Assembly (NCBI RefSeq): GCF_006345805.1 | Contig: NC_043013.1 | Location: 19,034,001-19,098,000, forward strand | Length of the DNA: 64,000 nucleotides | Origin: Octopus sinensis | Lineage: Eukaryota | Direction of reading: 5' to 3' | Shown here: positions 2,001-47,960 of the stretch, in pieces | Numbering within the stretch: the first letter of the stretch is position 1 | Layout of the letters: each line of letters opens with the position of its first letter | Translations under genes and position numbers: made by a program | The notes under the pieces: model-generated | The model's input: only the letters and a program-made list of their open reading frames with translations | What the model was told of the DNA's origin: nothing | The model's database searches: none

Positions 2001-2197
2001 AATGCTATTTTTTCCCTTTTCAAACGAAGTCGCTACCATTTACATTTGGAATCTTCTTTGAACACTCAGATATCAGTTTACCTGGAAAGAAACAATGCAA
2101 CCATTAATAAGAGGGTTTAAAAATTAATGCATACGACATGTTATGGTACTAGTATAACTTTTTCATAGTCAACCTATGAACTTTTAAGCTCACCTTC

Positions 2198-2229
<32 letters not shown>

Positions 2230-2351
2230 TACACAGGTGCTTATAATTATCAAGTACTCACCCCGAATTTCTATACTCAACTCACCTACGTTGTCACTAG
2301 GATCTGATCCCACGTAACCGCGACAACCTTTAGTACTTGACGAACCCAAGC

Positions 2352-4858
2352 ATGAAGATTCAAAGGATTCACACAAACTTCTCCCCCAAGGACATACCTC
2401 TCCACTCCGACAAAACTTACACGACGACTCTCATCCACCGGACCACAGACTTTATTAGAAGAATCAGGTGGGCGGCCTACCATTTCGATAACCCGGAGAA
2501 AAGCAACCCCAACTCTAACCAAGAAGAAATAGTACACAGGAAGATATTTAAAAGCAGAAGAAACCCACCCTCTAACTACGCACTGGAAAATTTTGAAAGA
2601 GACTTAATCGACCTCATTACCAACATCAACATTAGTAAACATAAGACCATTCCCAACACCCACTTAAGGAGCCTTAAAGATTTCCTGCATTCACTTAGGA
2701 ACGATGATAGTCTTATCATACCCGCCGACAAGACTGGGAACTGGTATAGGCTAGACTACCAAACCTACAAATCGCTCATCATGAGGGAACTTAGCAAAAA
2801 ATATAAAACTACTTCTACGGATAACCTTAAGGAAATTAACTACAAAATCAAGGAAGTTATGAGCAAATTAGACCTCCTAGACAGAACAGAACCTATTAAA
2901 CCACAAGTACCCAAAATTACTATTAAAGACCATAAGAAAGACTTCCCAGATAATGTAGGAGTACGATTAATCTGTCCGACTAAATCGGATATCGGCAGAC
3001 TTAGCAAGACTATCCTGGACAAGGTGATCCCACACATCAAACCCCACATCCCACTCCAACTATGGATTAACACCGACGATGTGCTAGAATGGTTTAACAC
3101 TATCACCAATAGGCCCGACTACTCATTCATCCAATTCGACATAGCTAGCTACTACGCCAGTATATCCCCCATCTTACTTAACAAATCCCTTATATTTGCC
3201 CGCAACCTTTCACTCATAGACAGAGAAAAATTGACATAATACTATTAGCTAGAAAAACCATAATAGAATTCGACGGTAGACTCTGGACCAGATCCGATAC
3301 CCCCGACAATTTTGATGTGGCTATGGGCTCGAGCGATTCAGCTCAGGTGACTGACTTGGTCGGGGCCTACCTGCTCAAGAAGCTTTTCTCCGAGGTACCG
3401 GATCTTCAGGGGGGTCTATACAGAGACGACGCTCTCTTCATATACCCCACCAACAATAGGAGTAAACTAGAAAGAATTAGGAAAAAGATCAGGCTTTTTT
3501 TCAAATCCTTCAATCTTAAACTAGAATTTATGACCAATACTAAAATAGTAAACTTCTTAAATGTTACGTTAGACCTGAATAAGCACCTTCACCACCCATA
3601 TAGGAAACCCGAAGAAACTACCAAATACATCCATACCTCTTCCAACCATCCACCCTGTATAATTAGCACCACGGTCCAAGCCATCTCAGACAGACTGACA
3701 AAACTATCCTCTAATAGAGAAATTTTCAATAATCACGCACAACACTACAACCAGGCTCTCTATAGTGCCGGGTATAACCAGAGAATATCATATGTAGACC
3801 ACCCGGGAGCGTCCGTCTGCCATAAAACTCCCAATTATAATCGAACTCAGCATTCAACTCACTCTAGCGATAATTCTAATTTAAACTCCAAACAACGTAT
3901 AGGAAATAGGCGAACTAATAGAATAGCACACAATAGTAACCCTCCCGACGAGAACAATATAGATCCTATTAGGAGCAATAGAAGGGATAATAGATTACGC
4001 AAATACATATGGTTCAACTTACCTTACAACTTAGCAGTTAGGGGTAAGTTATGTAAGAGAATATTCTCTATCATTTCCAACAACTTCCCACCCACCCACA
4101 AGTATAGAAGTATCTTCTCCAACAAAACCATTAGGATTTCCTACTCTACCCTGCCCAACATGAGCTGCCTCATAGCTAAACATAACTATATTAATATTAG
4201 AACAGCTAGATCAAGAGCAAACCATAGCGACCAACAGAACCCCCCTCATCTAGACAGTAGACAATATAACCAGACTGGCAGCCATACTACCCAAACAGTT
4301 AGTAATAACTCCCGCCAACACAACAGAGGAAATACTACACCCATCAACAACCAGGAGGATATCAACGCCCCCACTCGTATTGCAACACCTCCGCCTGGGA
4401 TTAGCAGCACACGACCGAATAATGCAATGCAATGCAACTGCAGATGTGCATCAGAGTGCCCGCTGCAGGGCGCATGTAGGGCGAAAAACGTAATATATTC
4501 ATGTGAGGTGAGTACCCAGTTTAACACACTCACCTATATTGGTTGCTCAACCTCCTGGAAATCCAGATACTACAACCACCGGTCCTCGCTGAGACACAGA
4601 CATAAGGCTAACAGCACCTCCCTTTCTAAAAGAATTTAGGAATTAAAAGACAAATGTATAGGCTTCAAACTCAGATGGTCCATCATCGGATCAGCTGCAC
4701 CTTATTTAAATAATAGAGCAGGATGCCAACTATGTTGTGTAGAACTCCTGAACATCTTGAAATTCAAAGACAAACACAATCTTATTAACAAAAGGTCAGA
4801 GTTCAAACCATCCTGTATACACAAACTTATTAATACTTTCAAATACTACAAAGCTTAG
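2352..4858 (+). pseudogene. PLE ORF (reverse transcriptase + GIY-YIG endonuclease), ~835 aa when repaired; 1 frameshift and 1 in-frame stop
   Basis: Motifs: IIPADKTGN, RLICP, FDIASYYASI, MGSSDSAQV, GLYRDD, VNFLNVTLDL, YRKP, SNHPP, CNCRCASECPLQGAC, NVIY...YIG...RYYNH, CQLC...E, LINKRSE..CIH. The frameshift is in an A-run at ~3226-3231. TAG at 4637-4639 sits at a usual Trp position, and the frame continues to TAG 4856-4858. Confidence 0.92.
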
Positions 4859-6677
4859 GTTTTATACCAACTCCCCCATGCAATTTCCTCCCACCCGGTG
4901 CAACCTGTCGGCTCCAGCACATCCCGCTTTCCTATATGTGCGTGTATATGCGTATGCGTGTGTGTATGTATATGTATGCGCACATATGTGTACGTATATG
5001 TACATATATATATATATATATATATGTGTGCGTGTGTGTGTGTGTGTGTGTGGGTGTGTGTATGTGCATATATGTTTCCCTGCATTTTCCTCCTATATAT
5101 ACAAATTTTGTCTCTCATACATGACTTCTTTTCCCTAAATATTTCTTCTCCTACACCCATATCCTTCCTATATAGTCTCTTTACTTCCCTATATCTATAC
5201 CCTTTCACATTTCTAACTCGGATGTTGAACGCACACCGCCAAACTCCACTTCCCACCCTTCCAATTTTTCAGTTCCCCCCGCCCGCCCCTACGTGGACAC
5301 TTTTAACACACACCTCTAACTTTCAACCACCTTCATCTCATGTTAAATTATATTTTTATCTTATTTTATTTTATTTTATTTTTACTCTTATTCTACTTCC
5401 ATTTATTCTCATTTTCATTTTCATCCCTTACCTTAACTCTTATAATTTTTATAACTTTTATATTTCATTTCTAACTATTACATTGTATTTCTTATTTTAT
5501 ACTGTATTTCTTACTTTTATTTCTAATTTTTACCCTTACCCTCATTCTTACCCCTAACTTATCGCTTTACATCTCTATATATGTTTATTTACTTACCTAT
5601 AGATCCACTTTTGACTATGCAAGCGTCCGTGTACGTATGTATACGCATACATACATAGACGCGCGCATATATGTACATGCATATTTTGATATCTTATAGC
5701 TATACCCATATGTCTCTGTGTGTGTGTGTAGGTGTATGTGTGCACGCACATACGTACACACAGCCGTGTGTGCGTGCACGCATAGACGTGATTCCTTTAA
5801 TATCTTATATCTAGACCTGGAAGCGTGAGCATATGCGTGTGTGTATGTAGTGATGAGCGCGCGTATGTACATGTGAGTGTGTACACGTATAGTGTCCGTG
5901 TATACATGCGGATATTCTGTTGTATGTATGTATGTGTACGCACGTGCGTGTGGGTGTGTGTGTGTTTATATGCATGTTTACACGCGAGTGCGTGTGTATG
6001 CTTATAGGCTTGGAGGCGTATATGTACGCGTGTATATGGGTGTGTGTATCCATGTTGGTATGTATGTACTAGAAGTCCAAATAATTCAAGGAACCAGATT
6101 AAACGCTCAACAGCTCTGATTTACAACGCATTAGGTCCCCAGACGAAACTGTTGATTTACTGACAATTCTACAACTAAATTTTATCAATCTCCTGACCAC
6201 CATGCTTGGTCCTTAACCTCTATACATCCCTTATCTTTATATTTTTTTATATTTTGTTACATTTTTATCATGTTTTTTTACTTTTATTTTTATTTCTATT
6301 TCTATTTTTACTTTATAACCTTATGCCTTTACATTTATTTATATTCTTTATATTCTTTATATTCTTTATACCCCCTTTACATCTCCTTATATCTCTTTAT
6401 ATCTTTATGCTCTACATTTTTATATTTTTCTATACTTACACTTTTTATACATTTTTATCCCTCGTCCTGAATTCTCGCCCATCTTCACGTATATACATGT
6501 ATTTATTTATTTACATTACTTCAACATCCATTTTTCCTCATCCTACATTGAGAGAAGAAAGAGATGGACGCTTCAATTCTATGCTGCTGCCGCATTATGT
6601 CGTACGCGAATGGGAGGATTTGCATCCCCAACCAAGAATTTCTGATGTAACACATGTCCTTGTGGAAGCTGTTGTGC

Positions 6678-11280: not shown

Positions 11281-11656
11281 TTTCTTTCCGTCACAACCAG
11301 GATGTTTCGCTGGGTCAACACCTCAGTAAATCTGCGTTTACTCGCGACTACAAGGACACCCAAAGCAATTAGCGGAAATATGGTACAGACTAGCATATTA
11401 TCTTCAGTCGGCGATCGTAGTTTGCATTTCACTTCGTCACTACGTCACATGTTTTCTGTTATTTCCTTTTTTGGTATAACACACATTAAAGATTATTATA
11501 TTTCGTTGTTGGATTTGGTTTGCAAGATTCTTTATATGAGTTCGTGTGTTGAAGCATATTCTGTTGTGTCTGGGGAGAGTCATTTTCTTTTTGTGCCTTA
11601 TTATGTAACACACTCACCGGCAAAATTTCCACTTTTTTCTTATTTTTTTTTATTGT

Positions 11657-11694
11657 CCTAAAATTTTCGTTGCGTCTTGCAACCTTTTCAATAG
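11657..11694 (-). ncRNA. Mirror copy of the U3-A8 minimal hammerhead-like motif
   Basis: Reverse complement of 11705-11742 in the left arm of the fold-back, with a 3-bp helix I. Confidence 0.55.
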
Positions 11695-11703
11695 TTTTGA
11701 CTC

Positions 11704-11742
11704 TCTATTGAAAAGGTTGCAAGACGCAACGAAAATTTTAGG
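11704..11742 (+). ncRNA. Minimal hammerhead-like motif, U3-A8 core variant
   Basis: TCTA-TTGAAAA-g-GTTGC-aagac-GCAAC-GAAA-A-T-T-T-TAGG. The geometry is the same as the other minimal HHRs here, with palindromic AATT as helix III. Confidence 0.6.
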
Positions 11743-12428
11743 ACAATAAAAAAATAAGAAAAAAGTGGAAATTTTACCGGTGAGTATGTTAAATAATAAG
11801 GCACAAAAAGAAAATGACTCTCCCCAGACACAACACATTAAAGAAACACATTTAAACTCATATCTTATTCAGTTTGATACCAGAGTCTATAAAATACAGT
11901 AAAGTATTAAATATTCTATTTTCACTCATTTTAGTTCGGCTGCTTCCTGAAACAAAGTAGTCACCTCAATGTTGCCGTCAGAGGGCGCATTCGGTTCGAA
12001 ATAGAATCCACGTTTCCTATAAATCACACTATATATTCTGAAAAGGAAGGATGCTTTGAATATGGTTATCTTAAACTACACTAATCCATGACAAGTTAAC
12101 CAGCGTTTGTTTCAATGTAATAATACTTAAGAGTTAATTTAGAGTAATTAACTTGAAAATTCGTGCTTAATTAAACGATTAATTGTAAACGTCGTTCTCT
12201 TTGTTTTGTTTATAGTGTTTCTTTGTAGACGGAGAATGGTCGGTCTAACCGAATTCAAAGCCTTGAAAATCTCTCCTAGAAATGTGCATCCGTATGTAAC
12301 TGTCTACAATGAGTGTCGTTGTTCTTATAGCTTCTAAAGTTAAAGATCTCACTAAACTTGGGAATCTGGTTTGCATAAATAAGGAATTATTTGCGATTCA
12401 TTCCCTTAATAAATTACAGGTTACACCA

Positions 12429-12502
12429 TGTCCGGATAAATAAAAGTGTCTGGATAAATAAAAGTGTTCGGATAAATAAAAGTGTCTGGATAAATAAAAG
12501 TG
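12429..12502. repeat. 18-bp minisatellite x4
   Basis: TGTYYGGATAAATAAAAG repeated four times in tandem. Confidence 0.92.
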
Positions 12503-15964: not shown

Positions 15965-16380
15965 CCGCTCTACAACGTAAAGTATAATAGCCATCTCAAT
16001 ATGGCTAACCACTAAGGGTGGGTGTTACTGTAGCTTTTAGCCCCAGGAGAACATCGTCTCCAGCTGGCTTTAGGCACACTATCTGTGCCCTTATGGTGAC
16101 GGAAGTTACTAGAAAAACCCATAAGTATTTGCAAACAAGTCTTCCTTTTCATCGTAAACCGGTGATTACCGTGCGTTGACAAGAGGCAAATACCTCGAAA
16201 CTGCAGTCCGTGCGTATCACTTAGGTTTACGAGAGAGGGATGACCTCCCTTTGCAAATACCACAAGAGCACAGATAGTGTGCCTAAAGCCAGCTGGAGAT
16301 GATGATCTCCTGGGGCTAAAAGCTACATTAACACCCACCCTTAGTGGTTAGCCATATTGAGATGGCTATTATACTTTACG
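15965..16380. mobile_element. Fold-back element with ~113-bp inverted arms enclosing a hammerhead
   Basis: Arms are 15976-16088 and 16268-16380. The flanking direct repeat GCTTTGAAGTCT is at 15953-15964 and 16380-16391. Confidence 0.82.
16171..16213 (+). ncRNA. Type I hammerhead ribozyme motif, U3-A8 core variant
   Basis: GTGCG-TTGACAA-GAGG-caaata-CCTC-GAAA-CTGCAG-TC-CGTGC, with a GUC cleavage triplet (16208). Helix I is extended by GTGAT/ATCAC and CGTAAACC/GGTTTACG. Confidence 0.8.
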
Positions 16381-47323: not shown

Positions 47324-47960
47324 TCATGTTCTCCTACGCAGAGCCTTCAAGTTCGCATTGGTCTGAAGTCGCATTGTCATTTGTTCATCCGTTTCTGAAG
47401 CCCTTGCATTGGTCATTAAAGCAGCAGTCAAAGCCTGACGATTTCTGCGCTGTACTGGTGATTCTGCGGCCTTTGCAGTATTTGTAGTATCAGCATTACG
47501 CTTCCTTCGAGTGATGCGCTGTGCTGGTGACTCTGACGCCCGTGCAGTTGCAGTAGTTTTAGCATTACGTGCCCTCCGGGCTGTGCGTTGTTGCGCTGAC
47601 TGTGAAGCCCTTGCAGCAGCAGCAGTTACAGCATTACGCTTCCTTAGGGTTCTATGCTCTTGTGGAGTGTCTGCAGCTGAGACATTTTTGGCAAGACGCA
47701 CCAAACGGATTGTCCGTTGTTGAGCTGACTCGGTAGCCCTTGCAGCTGAAGCCTTTTTGAAAAGACGCGCCAACAGGATAGTCCGTTGTCGAGGTGACTC
47801 GGTAGCATTTCGAATCCCTTGCTGATCTGTTGCTATTTGCCGTCATCATTTCATCTGTCCGATTGAGATTCTCTTGCTCATGCCCCTCGGCTATCTCTTG
47901 AGTTCTTTCTGCTTAAGACTAATCACACCTTTCTCCGGTTCCTTCCTAACATAAGTTATC
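47324..47960 (-). pseudogene. STPR-like 23-aa repeat ORF remnant, probably a Helitron Rep/Hel N-terminus
   Basis: Repeats ARATESAQQRTIRL, ARASQSAQQRTARR, ARASESPAQRITRR and ARASETDEQMTMRL with ~23-aa spacing. It is frameshifted upstream. Confidence 0.6.

What the first reader, a model, noticed from the sequence alone, without database searches (positions are those of the whole stretch)
11481..11844. Long palindrome carrying two back-to-back minimal U3-A8 hammerheads
Seen: ~130-bp near-perfect inverted arms with a 10-nt spacer. Each arm begins at the centre with CTA-TTGAAAA-g-GTTGC/GCAAC-GAAA-ATTT-TAG, the same geometry as the GAAA-CGTT minimal HHRs but with an AATT palindrome and a UUU triplet. 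The sequence is unrelated to the 16171 element, yet it has the same U3-A8 change and a similar ~170-nt distance from the cleavage site to the element end. Inference: a second independent variant-core family. Transcription in either direction would meet one ribozyme, and the hairpin is also a strong dsRNA (ADAR/Dicer) substrate.
Basis: partly seen in the sequence, partly recalled or inferred. Interest (0 to 1): 0.72.

Follow-up and report, generated by a model that had tools for sequence, protein, structure and literature searches.

The report
Head-to-head Penelope stub with hammerheads
This DNA palindrome is one of more than a thousand copies of the end piece of a Penelope-like jumping gene, set down as two mirror-image halves that each carry a small hammerhead-type RNA motif which is predicted, but not shown, to cut itself; it is an ordinary repeat of a known kind.

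Summary
Two ~130-nt inverted arms (11563-11694, 11705-11834) with 10 nt between them sit inside a 10-12 bp target duplication. Each arm carries CUA-UUGAAAA-G-GUUGC/GCAAC-GAAA-AUU-U|UAG.

This is not a free-standing device. It is one copy of a repeat with at least 1,296 exact motif copies in a 2.7-Gb animal genome. The ~206-nt unit (minus strand, 11705 to 11500) is the 3' end of an abundant Penelope-like element (PLE). In 19 of 20 loci encoding that element's GIY-YIG endonuclease, the unit lies 420-835 nt downstream on the same strand.

Several features match the published PLE insertion footprint:
- a 58-nt tail on one arm only
- two alternative 3' ends across the family
- variable target duplications
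- variable joints at the centre
- both arms of a copy sharing variants

The motif meets the published criteria for minimal hammerheads of PLEs, including the known U3-A8 variant, and is far from chance. Self-cleavage is untested. I found no compensatory changes, and no insertion starts at the predicted cut.

This is a new member of a known kind. The scan has noted the same layout before for other families in this genome.

The parts
11483..11492 (.). Left copy of the target-site duplication, ACATTAAAGA (12 nt if AC at 11481-11482 is counted).
   Evidence: A flanking direct repeat of 8 bp or more is found in 20 of 24 palindromic copies, against 4.3% of control flank pairs.
11493..11499 (.). 7-nt A/T filler (TTATTAT) between the duplication and the element's 3' end.
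   Evidence: Other copies abut (TA)n or A/T-rich DNA at this end.
11500..11557 (-). 'Tail': unit positions 149-206, present on this arm only. It ends in ...CGAAAT.
   Evidence: Among 28 long copies, 14 have the tail and 14 end near position 143-150.
11558..11704 (-). Body of the tail-bearing arm, unit positions 2-148 (sense strand of the retroelement).
   Evidence: This stretch is 81-92% identical to the sequence downstream of the PLE endonuclease ORF.
11658..11694 (-). min-HHR motif of the tailed arm (unit positions 12-48). The predicted cut lies between 11661 and 11660.
11695..11704 (-). The '10-nt spacer'. It is unit positions 2-11 (AGAGTCAAAA), the 5' leader of the tailed arm, which the other arm lacks.
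   Evidence: the window copy L096 has its tailed arm starting at position 2 and its inverted arm starting at position 12.
11500..11583 (-). Open frame from ATG (11583) through the tail (MTLPRHNRICFNTRTHIKNLANQIQQRN). This is a possible start of the PLE ORF and is inferred only.
   Evidence: By analogy with the Anolis PLE, in which reverse transcription starts inside the beginning of the ORF (PMC11167929, passages).
11705..11834 (+). Inverted arm without tail (unit positions 12-143), head to head with the first arm.
   Evidence: 96% identity over 133 nt to the unit.
11705..11741 (+). min-HHR motif of the inverted arm. The predicted cut lies between 11738 and 11739.
   Evidence: The exact 37-mer occurs 628 + 668 times in the genome, and its reversed control 0 times.
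11835..11844 (.). Right copy of the target-site duplication, ACATTAAAGA.

Best explanation
The palindrome is one insertion of the last ~200 nt of an abundant Penelope-like retroelement (PLE), and its two mirror-image arms were likely made during that one insertion, when the element's enzyme primed DNA copies of the same RNA on both cut strands of the target.

Shown here:
- The unit (minus strand, 11705 to 11500) is the sequence that follows the RT/GIY-YIG ORF of a PLE family.
- The family has two alternative 3' ends about 58 nt apart, at unit position ~143-150 and at 206. In this copy one arm uses each end, which gives a tail on one side only.
- Copies are flanked by target duplications of 7-15 bp in A/T-rich DNA.
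- The joint at the centre differs from copy to copy.
- The two arms of a copy share variants more often than arms of different copies do.

Inferred:
- The two 3' ends are two start sites of reverse transcription, and both target strands are extended, as shown in vitro for the Anolis PLE (PMC11167929).
- The arms run to the 5' end of a short template RNA that begins about 10 nt upstream of the hammerhead motif.

Each arm carries the family's minimal type I hammerhead motif: a U3-A8 core, one unpaired G before a 5-bp helix II, an AAUU stand-in for helix III, a UUU cut triplet and a 3-bp helix I. It is predicted to cut after U17, at best weakly and only when two RNA molecules pair through AAUU. 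In a transcript that spans both arms, the motif would be locked into a -214 kcal/mol hairpin. Cutting is probably not what sets the ends of the inserted copies.
For: Repeat family. The palindrome query gives 2,151 first-look candidates, with copies 89-93% identical. The tailed 147 nt gives 985 candidates. The exact 37-nt motif occurs 1,296 times, and its reversed control 0 times.

Link to a PLE. The GIY-YIG ORF scores E 7.6e-8, 33 bits against a cut-off of 22.6. Searched as a protein, it gives 8,019 first-look candidates. In 19 of the 20 loci fetched, the unit starts 421-835 nt after the endonuclease match, on the same strand, at 81-92% identity to the window's unit; L089 has none. Upstream ORFs in L127 read the RT motifs SLYPSI, QGAAIG and YVDD, a CX4CX2C linker, and VVYSIRC...YIGET. 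BLASTP of that ORF hits ORFs L047 (E 2e-8) and L037 (E 1.5e-7), and both carry Pfam RVT_1 plus GIY-YIG above cut-off.

Footprint. Among 28 long copies, the tail is present in 14 and absent in 14. A target duplication of 8 bp or more flanks 20 of 24 palindromic copies, against 4.3% of controls. The arm majorities are exact reverse complements over 129 nt. Within copies there are 36 symmetric variants (1.5 per copy) against 0.34 for arms taken from different copies, plus 164 one-arm variants. In a sample of 30 tailed copies not chosen for the palindrome, an inverted arm is present in 19 and absent in 11. Arm 5' ends fall at unit position 2-3 in 15 of 49 arms and at position 2-7 in 22 of 49. Published match: an inverted copy at the 5' end plus a one-sided tail and (TA)n targets (PMC8557442, passages); both strands cleaved and extended, two RT start sites with the tail between them, and A/T-rich cleavage sites (PMC11167929, passages).

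Motif. The descriptor gives 5 hits in the window against 0.005 per shuffled window, and 0 of 20,000 shuffled arms. The features named by Cervera and de la Pena as not built into their descriptor are all present here: a nucleotide between 9 and 10.1, G10.1-C11.1, and a palindromic 15.2-16.2; U3-A8 is also reported there. A single 60-nt arm folds as its minimum-energy structure into helices I and II (-8.2 kcal/mol; 4 of 200 shuffles fold as well). Three lineages of the family differ at 1 of 37 motif sites (in loop 2), against 9 of 72 sites just downstream. Contigs of four runs show no variant at 10% or more inside either motif, against 13 such sites in the rest of the arms.
Against: - No cleavage data exist for this motif.
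- Rfam finds no hammerhead, either at gathering score or at E up to 10.
- Helix I has only 3 bp. The helix III substitute is AAUU, all A-U. The UUU triplet is, from my recollection of the NUH literature, a poor one.
- No helix pair shows a compensatory change.
- Across 79 copies the motif varies as much as its flanks (0.055 against 0.060). The 1/37 against 9/72 lineage contrast is not significant on its own.
- 0 of 49 arm 5' ends lie at the predicted cut product's first base (position 46), and 2 lie within 2 nt of it. Published min-HHRs cleave poorly in vitro (PMC4209133), and hammerhead mutants do not impair PLE insertion in vitro (PMC11167929).
- Pfam RVT_1 does not hit this family's own upstream ORFs at E up to 0.1. 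A PDB sequence search gives nothing relevant. I found no intact full-length copy of the young lineage: L121/L126 is truncated about 500 nt upstream.
- The tail is 58 nt, against the published 30-40 bp.
- The dual-strand priming step is taken from another species' enzyme.
Confidence: 0.8

Rival explanations
1. The short palindromic copies are a self-sustaining non-autonomous lineage, a 'PLE-SINE'. Under this reading, stubs are themselves transcribed from about 10 nt upstream of the motif and are copied in trans by PLE enzymes. They would not be by-products of full-length PLE transcripts.
For: Short copies are 97-98% identical to each other over the tailed 147 nt, but only 81-92% identical to the units behind endonuclease ORFs. 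They carry their own diagnostic bases, for example A rather than G at unit position 10, and GGACAAT rather than GAAAAT. Only 2 of 30 sampled tailed copies run more than about 37 nt upstream of the unit. Symmetric variants show lineage evolution before insertion.
Against: No promoter or transcription start was shown. A young autonomous master with the same diagnostic bases may simply not have been sampled, since only the best 40 candidates are scored per search. Arm 5' ends are spread over positions -12 to 53, not fixed.
Confidence: 0.35
2. The motif descends from a hammerhead but no longer cuts. Under this reading it is kept, or merely not yet lost, as part of the structured RNA end that the PLE enzyme recognises.
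For: It has a 3-bp helix I, an AAUU helix III substitute, a UUU triplet and no compensatory changes. No insertion ends lie at the cut site (0 of 49). Hammerhead-dead mutants insert normally in vitro, and no RNA-seq reads ended at the cut site in Anolis (PMC11167929). PLE clades without a hammerhead still proliferate (PMC8557442).
Against: The core, G10.1-C11.1 and helix II are unchanged in three lineages, whereas neighbouring sequence changed at 9 of 72 sites. U3-A8 keeps the 3-8 pair (PMC4209133). Other PLE families here keep the same architecture with stronger helix III palindromes: ACGU, ACAUGU and ACUGCAGU.
Confidence: 0.45
3. The element is a miniature inverted-repeat or foldback DNA transposon that happens to contain a hammerhead-like string.
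For: It is a long near-perfect palindrome flanked by a direct repeat, present in high copy number.
Against: It is asymmetric: a 58-nt tail sits on one arm only. Target duplications vary from 7 to 15 bp. 11 of 30 sampled copies have a single arm. The centre varies from copy to copy. The unit is continuous with the 3' region of an RT/GIY-YIG ORF in 19 of 20 loci. The motif is not expected by chance.
Confidence: 0.02

Closest known systems
Minimal type I hammerheads (min-HHR) in the pseudo-LTRs of metazoan Penelope-like elements (Cervera and de la Pena 2014, PMC4209133; I read parts 1-2 of 4 of the text)
   Same: Core boxes with the reported U3-A8 covariant. [quoted passage not shown] A G10.1-C11.1 pair. 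No real helix III, but a palindromic 15.1-16.1 stretch suited to pairing between two molecules. A short helix I. Thousands of dispersed copies. Pairs on opposite strands 100-700 bp apart are also mentioned there.
   Different: Helix II has 5 bp, against the 6-8 reported. Helix I has 3 bp, against 4-5 (2 in D. virilis). The palindrome is all A-U (AAUU) and the cut triplet is UUU. The host is a different animal group; I saw no cephalopod or mollusc example in the parts I read, and I did not open the supplements.
Insertions of endonuclease-bearing PLEs with an inverted copy at the 5' end and a one-sided tail (Craig et al. 2021, PMC8557442; Frangieh et al. 2024, PMC11167929; passages read)
   Same: Head-to-head arms, a tail at one end only, two alternative 3' ends across the family, target duplications, A/T-rich or (TA)n targets, and a hammerhead lying within a few hundred nt of the 3' end, downstream of the RT/GIY-YIG ORF.
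   Different: The tail is 58 nt rather than 30-40 bp. Most copies are only 150-200 nt per arm, and many arms end at one preferred point (unit position 2-3), so the family looks like a short dedicated unit rather than randomly truncated long copies.
Metazoan non-LTR retrozymes (PMC7229834, search listing only; bioRxiv 10.64898/2026.07.22.740005, abstract only)
   Same: Short, non-coding, hammerhead-bearing repeats thought to derive from PLE pseudo-LTRs.
   Different: Retrozymes are head-to-tail tandem arrays that give circular RNAs. In this family the copies are single or head to head. Among the 100 listed places of the exact motif, I saw no tandem array at unit spacing, and no circular RNA evidence was obtainable.
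MITEs / foldback transposons
   Same: A palindrome with flanking direct repeats, in high copy number.
   Different: See the rival explanation: asymmetry, variable duplications, single-arm copies, and continuity with a retroelement ORF.

Membership tests
PLE min-HHR (Cervera and de la Pena 2014) | Core boxes CUGANGA ... GAAA, or the U3-A8 covariant | tested here: met
   UUGAAAA ... GAAA is present on both strands.
PLE min-HHR (Cervera and de la Pena 2014) | [quoted passage not shown] | tested here: met
   G + GUUGC-AAGAC-GCAAC, giving 5 bp. The published range is 6-8 bp.
PLE min-HHR (Cervera and de la Pena 2014) | No stable helix III; a palindromic 15.2-16.2 that allows pairing between two molecules | tested here: met
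   A15.1-A-U-U16.1 forms AAUU. Dimer formation itself was not tested.
PLE min-HHR (Cervera and de la Pena 2014) | Cut site U16.1-H17 (H not G), followed by a strand that pairs with the 5' strand of helix I (4-5 bp; 2 bp in D. virilis) | tested here: inconclusive
   H17 is U. Helix I is CUA/UAG, only 3 bp. In this copy a further GUC/GAC stem follows a 4-nt bulge, but the family majority lacks one of those pairs.
PLE min-HHR (Cervera and de la Pena 2014) | Located in the terminal repeat region of an element encoding RT plus a GIY-YIG endonuclease | tested here: met
   19 of 20 endonuclease loci carry the unit downstream on the same strand. RT motifs and GIY-YIG were read or scored.
PLE min-HHR (Cervera and de la Pena 2014) | Covariation in helices within or between consensus families | tested here: not met
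   Within this family the helix pairs never vary between lineages, and copies show only breaking changes. Other families in this genome have different helices with the same architecture, but my descriptor selected them, so that comparison is circular.
Hammerhead ribozyme (any type) | Site-specific self-cleavage | not testable with these tools
   Only contigs, not raw reads, were served.
Rfam hammerhead families (e.g. Hammerhead_1) | Match to a covariance model | tested here: not met
   No hit at gathering score in the window, and none at E up to 10 in 11300-12000. This is expected for a motif without helix III.
EN+ PLE insertion footprint | An inverted copy adjacent to the 5' end, a tail at one end only, and a target-site duplication | tested here: met
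   The tail is 58 nt rather than 30-40 bp.
Metazoan non-LTR retrozyme | Head-to-tail tandem repeats, each with a hammerhead, expressed as circular RNA | tested here: not met
   Copies are single or head to head. Circular RNA is not testable with contigs.

The most novel reading that the evidence does not exclude
The ~150-200-nt stubs are the smallest unit that Penelope-type enzymes mobilise. Under this reading, a capped leader RNA runs from its own start, 10 nt upstream of the hammerhead, to the two reverse-transcription start sites. It propagates as an independent lineage of over a thousand head-to-head copies. The hammerhead is kept although it never sets an end, so its job in these elements would be recruiting or positioning the enzyme on the RNA rather than cutting it.
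Probability: 0.2. Interest if true: 0.55.

Novelty: new member of a known kind. Interest (0 to 1): 0.3.

Why it matters
The finding explains a striking palindrome as a routine by-product of Penelope-type retrotransposition, so it should not be counted as a new ribozyme device.

It has modest positive value in three ways:
- It gives a large natural sample (over a thousand copies) in which the in-vitro model of PLE insertion can be read from genomic copies. That model has two internal start sites, priming on both strands, and a tail.
- It adds a further animal lineage, and a further family, to the U3-A8 variant of the minimal hammerhead.
- It adds indirect evidence that hammerhead cutting does not define the ends of inserted PLE copies. 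This bears on the open question of what these motifs are for.

Tried and rejected
- Rfam: no family reaches gathering score in the window. At E up to 10 on 11300-12000 there are 45 matches, all below their gathering scores; most are long-hairpin microRNA families, which any palindrome would match, and none is a hammerhead.
- Window ORFs: 12 of the 26 ORFs of 130 aa or more were scanned against Pfam. None showed RT or endonuclease.
- First attempt at a PLE link: the unit was BLASTed against 30 GIY-YIG loci found with PF01541. The only hit was L048, which could have been chance. It became the lead to the right family.
- tblastn with ORFs of another PLE family against the first long loci gave only weak low-complexity hits.
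- Pfam on the upstream ORFs of L127/L128 gave no RVT_1. PDB phmmer gave nothing relevant. The ESM Atlas gave DUF8422 / 'reverse transcriptase' clusters at score 0.95, which I treat as a lead only.
- L121/L126, the one long copy close to the young lineage, is cut off about 500 nt upstream and has no ORF.
- RNA evidence: no RNA holder is listed. All runs are Logan contigs labelled 'RNA?' by guess. Laying four of them showed no starts or ends (contigs cannot show these). There is no sign of A-to-G editing: the two A>G sites have the same share in the DNA-like runs. No usable joints for circles appeared. None of this counts for or against expression, cleavage or editing.
- Per-site conservation across 79 copies shows no contrast between the motif and its flanks.
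- A spliced-leader reading of the preferred 5' end (ACAG|AGUC) was rejected, because arms reach 1-2 nt beyond the would-be exon start and no upstream exon is attached.
- A snap-back reading that uses the 8-nt complementarity between the 5' end and the ATG region was rejected, because it predicts a different product.
- One search failed on a size limit and was resent with shorter stretches.
- Earlier notes of this scan had no entry for this sequence.

Full report
**What is in the window**

Between 11481 and 11844 lies a palindrome. The repeat finder gives arms 11557-11649/11748-11840 (93 nt, 95% complementary) and 11635-11694/11705-11764 (60 nt, 93%), with 10 nt between the inner arms. Folded as RNA, the stretch is one hairpin of -213.7 kcal/mol, against -59.5 +/- 4.8 for 100 shuffles (z -32).

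**It is a repeat, and it is asymmetric**

- The palindrome has 2,151 first-look candidates in the window's own 2.72-Gb genome, and the scored copies are 89-93% identical. The exact 37-nt motif occurs 628 + 668 times, and its reversed control 0 times.
- Aligning 25 distinct loci showed that one arm always carries an extra ~58 nt ending in ...CGAAAT, while the other arm stops near ...CAGACACAAC(AGAAT). In the window the extra piece is 11500-11557.
- The element's sense strand is therefore the window's minus strand. I number the unit from the centre, so that position p corresponds to window base 11706 - p.
- Flanking direct repeats of 8 bp or more (range 7-15 bp) surround 20 of 24 oriented copies. 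The control, flanks of different copies, gives 4.3%. In the window the duplication is ACATTAAAGA at 11483-11492 and 11835-11844.
- Targets are A/T-rich, often (TA)n (and loose ends).

**The unit is the 3' end of a Penelope-like element**

- A diverged single-arm copy (L048) lay downstream of a GIY-YIG ORF. Its upstream sequence proved to be repeated itself (76 candidates).
- The ORF scores E 7.6e-8 for Pfam GIY-YIG, 33 bits against a cut-off of 22.6.
- Searched as a protein, it has 8,019 first-look candidates, and 150 were scored at 68-100% identity.
- In 19 of the 20 loci fetched, the unit begins 421-835 nt after the endonuclease match, on the same strand, at 81-92% identity to the window's unit. 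One locus (L089) has none.
- In L127 the ORF pieces upstream (405 and 428 aa) read SLYPSI, QGAAIG and YVDD, then a CX4CX2C linker, then VVYSIRC...YIGET.
- BLASTP links the 428-aa piece (E 2e-8 and 1.5e-7) to ORFs of another family. Pfam scores those ORFs as RVT_1 plus GIY-YIG, both above cut-off.
- Against this: Pfam RVT_1 does not hit this family's own ORFs, a PDB sequence search is empty, and the Atlas match to DUF8422 / 'reverse transcriptase' clusters is only a lead.

**The footprint matches published PLE insertions**

- Among 28 long copies, 14 end with the tail at position 206 and 14 end near position 143-150. The family therefore has two 3' ends about 58 nt apart. In the window's copy one arm uses each.
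- Craig et al. describe an inverted copy at the 5' end, a tail at one end only, and (TA)n targets (PMC8557442, passages).
- Frangieh et al. show that an Anolis PLE cleaves and extends both target strands. It starts reverse transcription at two internal sites, the tail is the stretch between them, and it prefers A/T-rich sites (PMC11167929, passages).
- I infer the same mechanism here. It was not tested.

**The arms are made at insertion**

- The majority sequences of the two arms are exact reverse complements over 129 nt.
- Within copies, 36 variants are present in both arms (1.5 per copy), against 0.34 for arms of different copies. A further 164 variants are in one arm only.
- The centre differs by small insertions, deletions and fillers in nearly every copy.
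- I sampled 30 tailed copies using only the outer 147 nt as the query, so the sample is blind to the centre. An inverted arm is present in 19 (two of them 154 and 216 nt away) and absent in 11.
- Arm 5' ends lie at unit position 2-3 in 15 of 49 arms and at position 2-7 in 22 of 49. The rest are spread from -12 to 95, and two copies run further upstream. These ends come from local alignments and may be off by a few nt.
- In the window's copy the tailed arm starts at position 2 and the other arm at position 12. The '10-nt spacer' is therefore simply positions 2-11.
- I read the preferred end as the 5' end of the template RNA. This is inferred.

**Is the motif a hammerhead?**

Evidence in favour:
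- My descriptor allows a C3-G8 or U3-A8 core, 0-1 extra nucleotide, a helix II of 4 bp or more, GAAA, a palindromic insert, U, H, and a helix I of 3 bp or more.
- It gives 5 hits in the window: the two here, plus 16176, 49123 and 45981. Dinucleotide-shuffled windows give 0.005 per window (200 shuffles), and 20,000 shuffles of the arm give 0 hits.
- I designed the descriptor after seeing the candidate. However, the candidate also shows the features that Cervera and de la Pena list as not built into their own search: a nucleotide between 9 and 10.1, G10.1-C11.1, and a palindromic 15.2-16.2. They also report the U3-A8 covariant, with ~1,300 hits in Schistosoma (PMC4209133, parts 1-2 of 4 read).
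- A single 60-nt arm folds into helices I and II as its minimum-energy structure.
- The majorities of three lineages differ at 1 of 37 motif sites (in loop 2), against 9 of 72 sites downstream.
- Contigs of four runs show no variant at 10% or more inside either motif, against 13 such sites in the rest of the arms.

Evidence against activity:
- Helix I has 3 bp. The helix III stand-in is AAUU. The triplet is UUU, which I recall as poor from the NUH literature, not from any call.
- No pair shows a compensatory change.
- Variability across 79 copies is the same in the motif and its flanks (0.055 against 0.060).
- Rfam finds no hammerhead.
- None of 49 arm ends lies at position 46.
- Published min-HHRs cut poorly in vitro. 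Hammerhead-dead PLE RNA inserts normally.

One copy (L123) has a deletion running from the core to exactly the predicted cut. That is an anecdote only.

- The two motifs sit on opposite strands. Any transcript across the palindrome therefore holds one motif plus its complement, and would form the hairpin. They cannot act as the dimer that such motifs are thought to need.
- U3-A8 is common in this genome's PLEs. The unrelated palindrome at 15976-16380 has it. So does the RVT_1/GIY-YIG family of L037/L038/L047, where 6 of 30 endonuclease loci have a descriptor hit, all with the U-A core.
- Expression, cutting and editing could not be tested, because only contigs were served.

**Comparison and verdict**

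The element works like, and is a member of, the endonuclease-bearing PLE insertions that carry a min-HHR. It is not a retrozyme, because copies are not in tandem. It is not a DNA transposon.

I found no paper on this family. Repbase/Dfam could not be searched. Earlier notes of this scan call the genome an octopus and report the same head-to-head layout for other families. They have no entry for this sequence. I did not verify the organism name.

Overall this is a new member of a known kind, of modest interest.

Noticed in passing
window 15976-16380: A second palindrome with 122-nt arms (96% complementary) and 161 nt between them. My descriptor finds a U3-A8 min-HHR at 16176 (+), with a CUGCAG palindrome. 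It has no sequence similarity to the element studied here (best BLAST E 1.2).
   Followed up: partly
window 49123 (+) and 45981 (-): Two descriptor hits with the canonical C3-G8 core, an unpaired nucleotide before helix II, and an ACGU palindrome. They are probably the ends of other PLE families.
   Followed up: no
L038:2362, L047:2365, L053:2363, L060:2550 (+); L050:681, L052:657 (-): Another abundant PLE family, whose ORFs carry Pfam RVT_1 and GIY-YIG, has a U3-A8 min-HHR (UUGAUAA ... GAAA-CAUG-U) downstream of the endonuclease. U3-A8 is therefore widespread among this genome's PLEs.
   Followed up: partly
window 11697-11705 with 11576-11583 (minus strand; unit positions 1-8 and 123-130): The unit's 5' end, GAGAGUCA, is complementary to UGACUCUC at the putative ATG. 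In the 146-nt fold, this 8-bp helix encloses the hammerhead domain.
   Followed up: no
L123 (G000:C9:95934896-95938042), centre of the copy: This copy has an internal deletion, CTATTGAA|TAGGAC, which removes the core and helix II. Its 3' edge lies exactly at the predicted cut site. It is a single case.
   Followed up: no
L127 (G000:C2:60364000-60371500), sense coordinates 1401-1541 and ~2050-6028: A ~4-kb copy with about 1,000 aa of ORF in four pieces has a short untailed inverted arm about 500 nt upstream. This is the published 'inverted copy at the 5' end' layout on a long element.
   Followed up: partly
window 11808-12000: Contigs from runs labelled as two other organisms bridge the element's right end into the flank, with 0 and 4 differences in 193 nt. 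This very insertion therefore seems to be shared by close relatives, or by the same species under other labels.
   Followed up: no
window 12429-12500: A tandem array of an 18-nt unit, TGTC(C/T)GGATAAATAAAAG.
   Followed up: no
window 47327-47842 (-): An open frame with a Pfam STPRs repeat match (E 3.3e-14).
   Followed up: no
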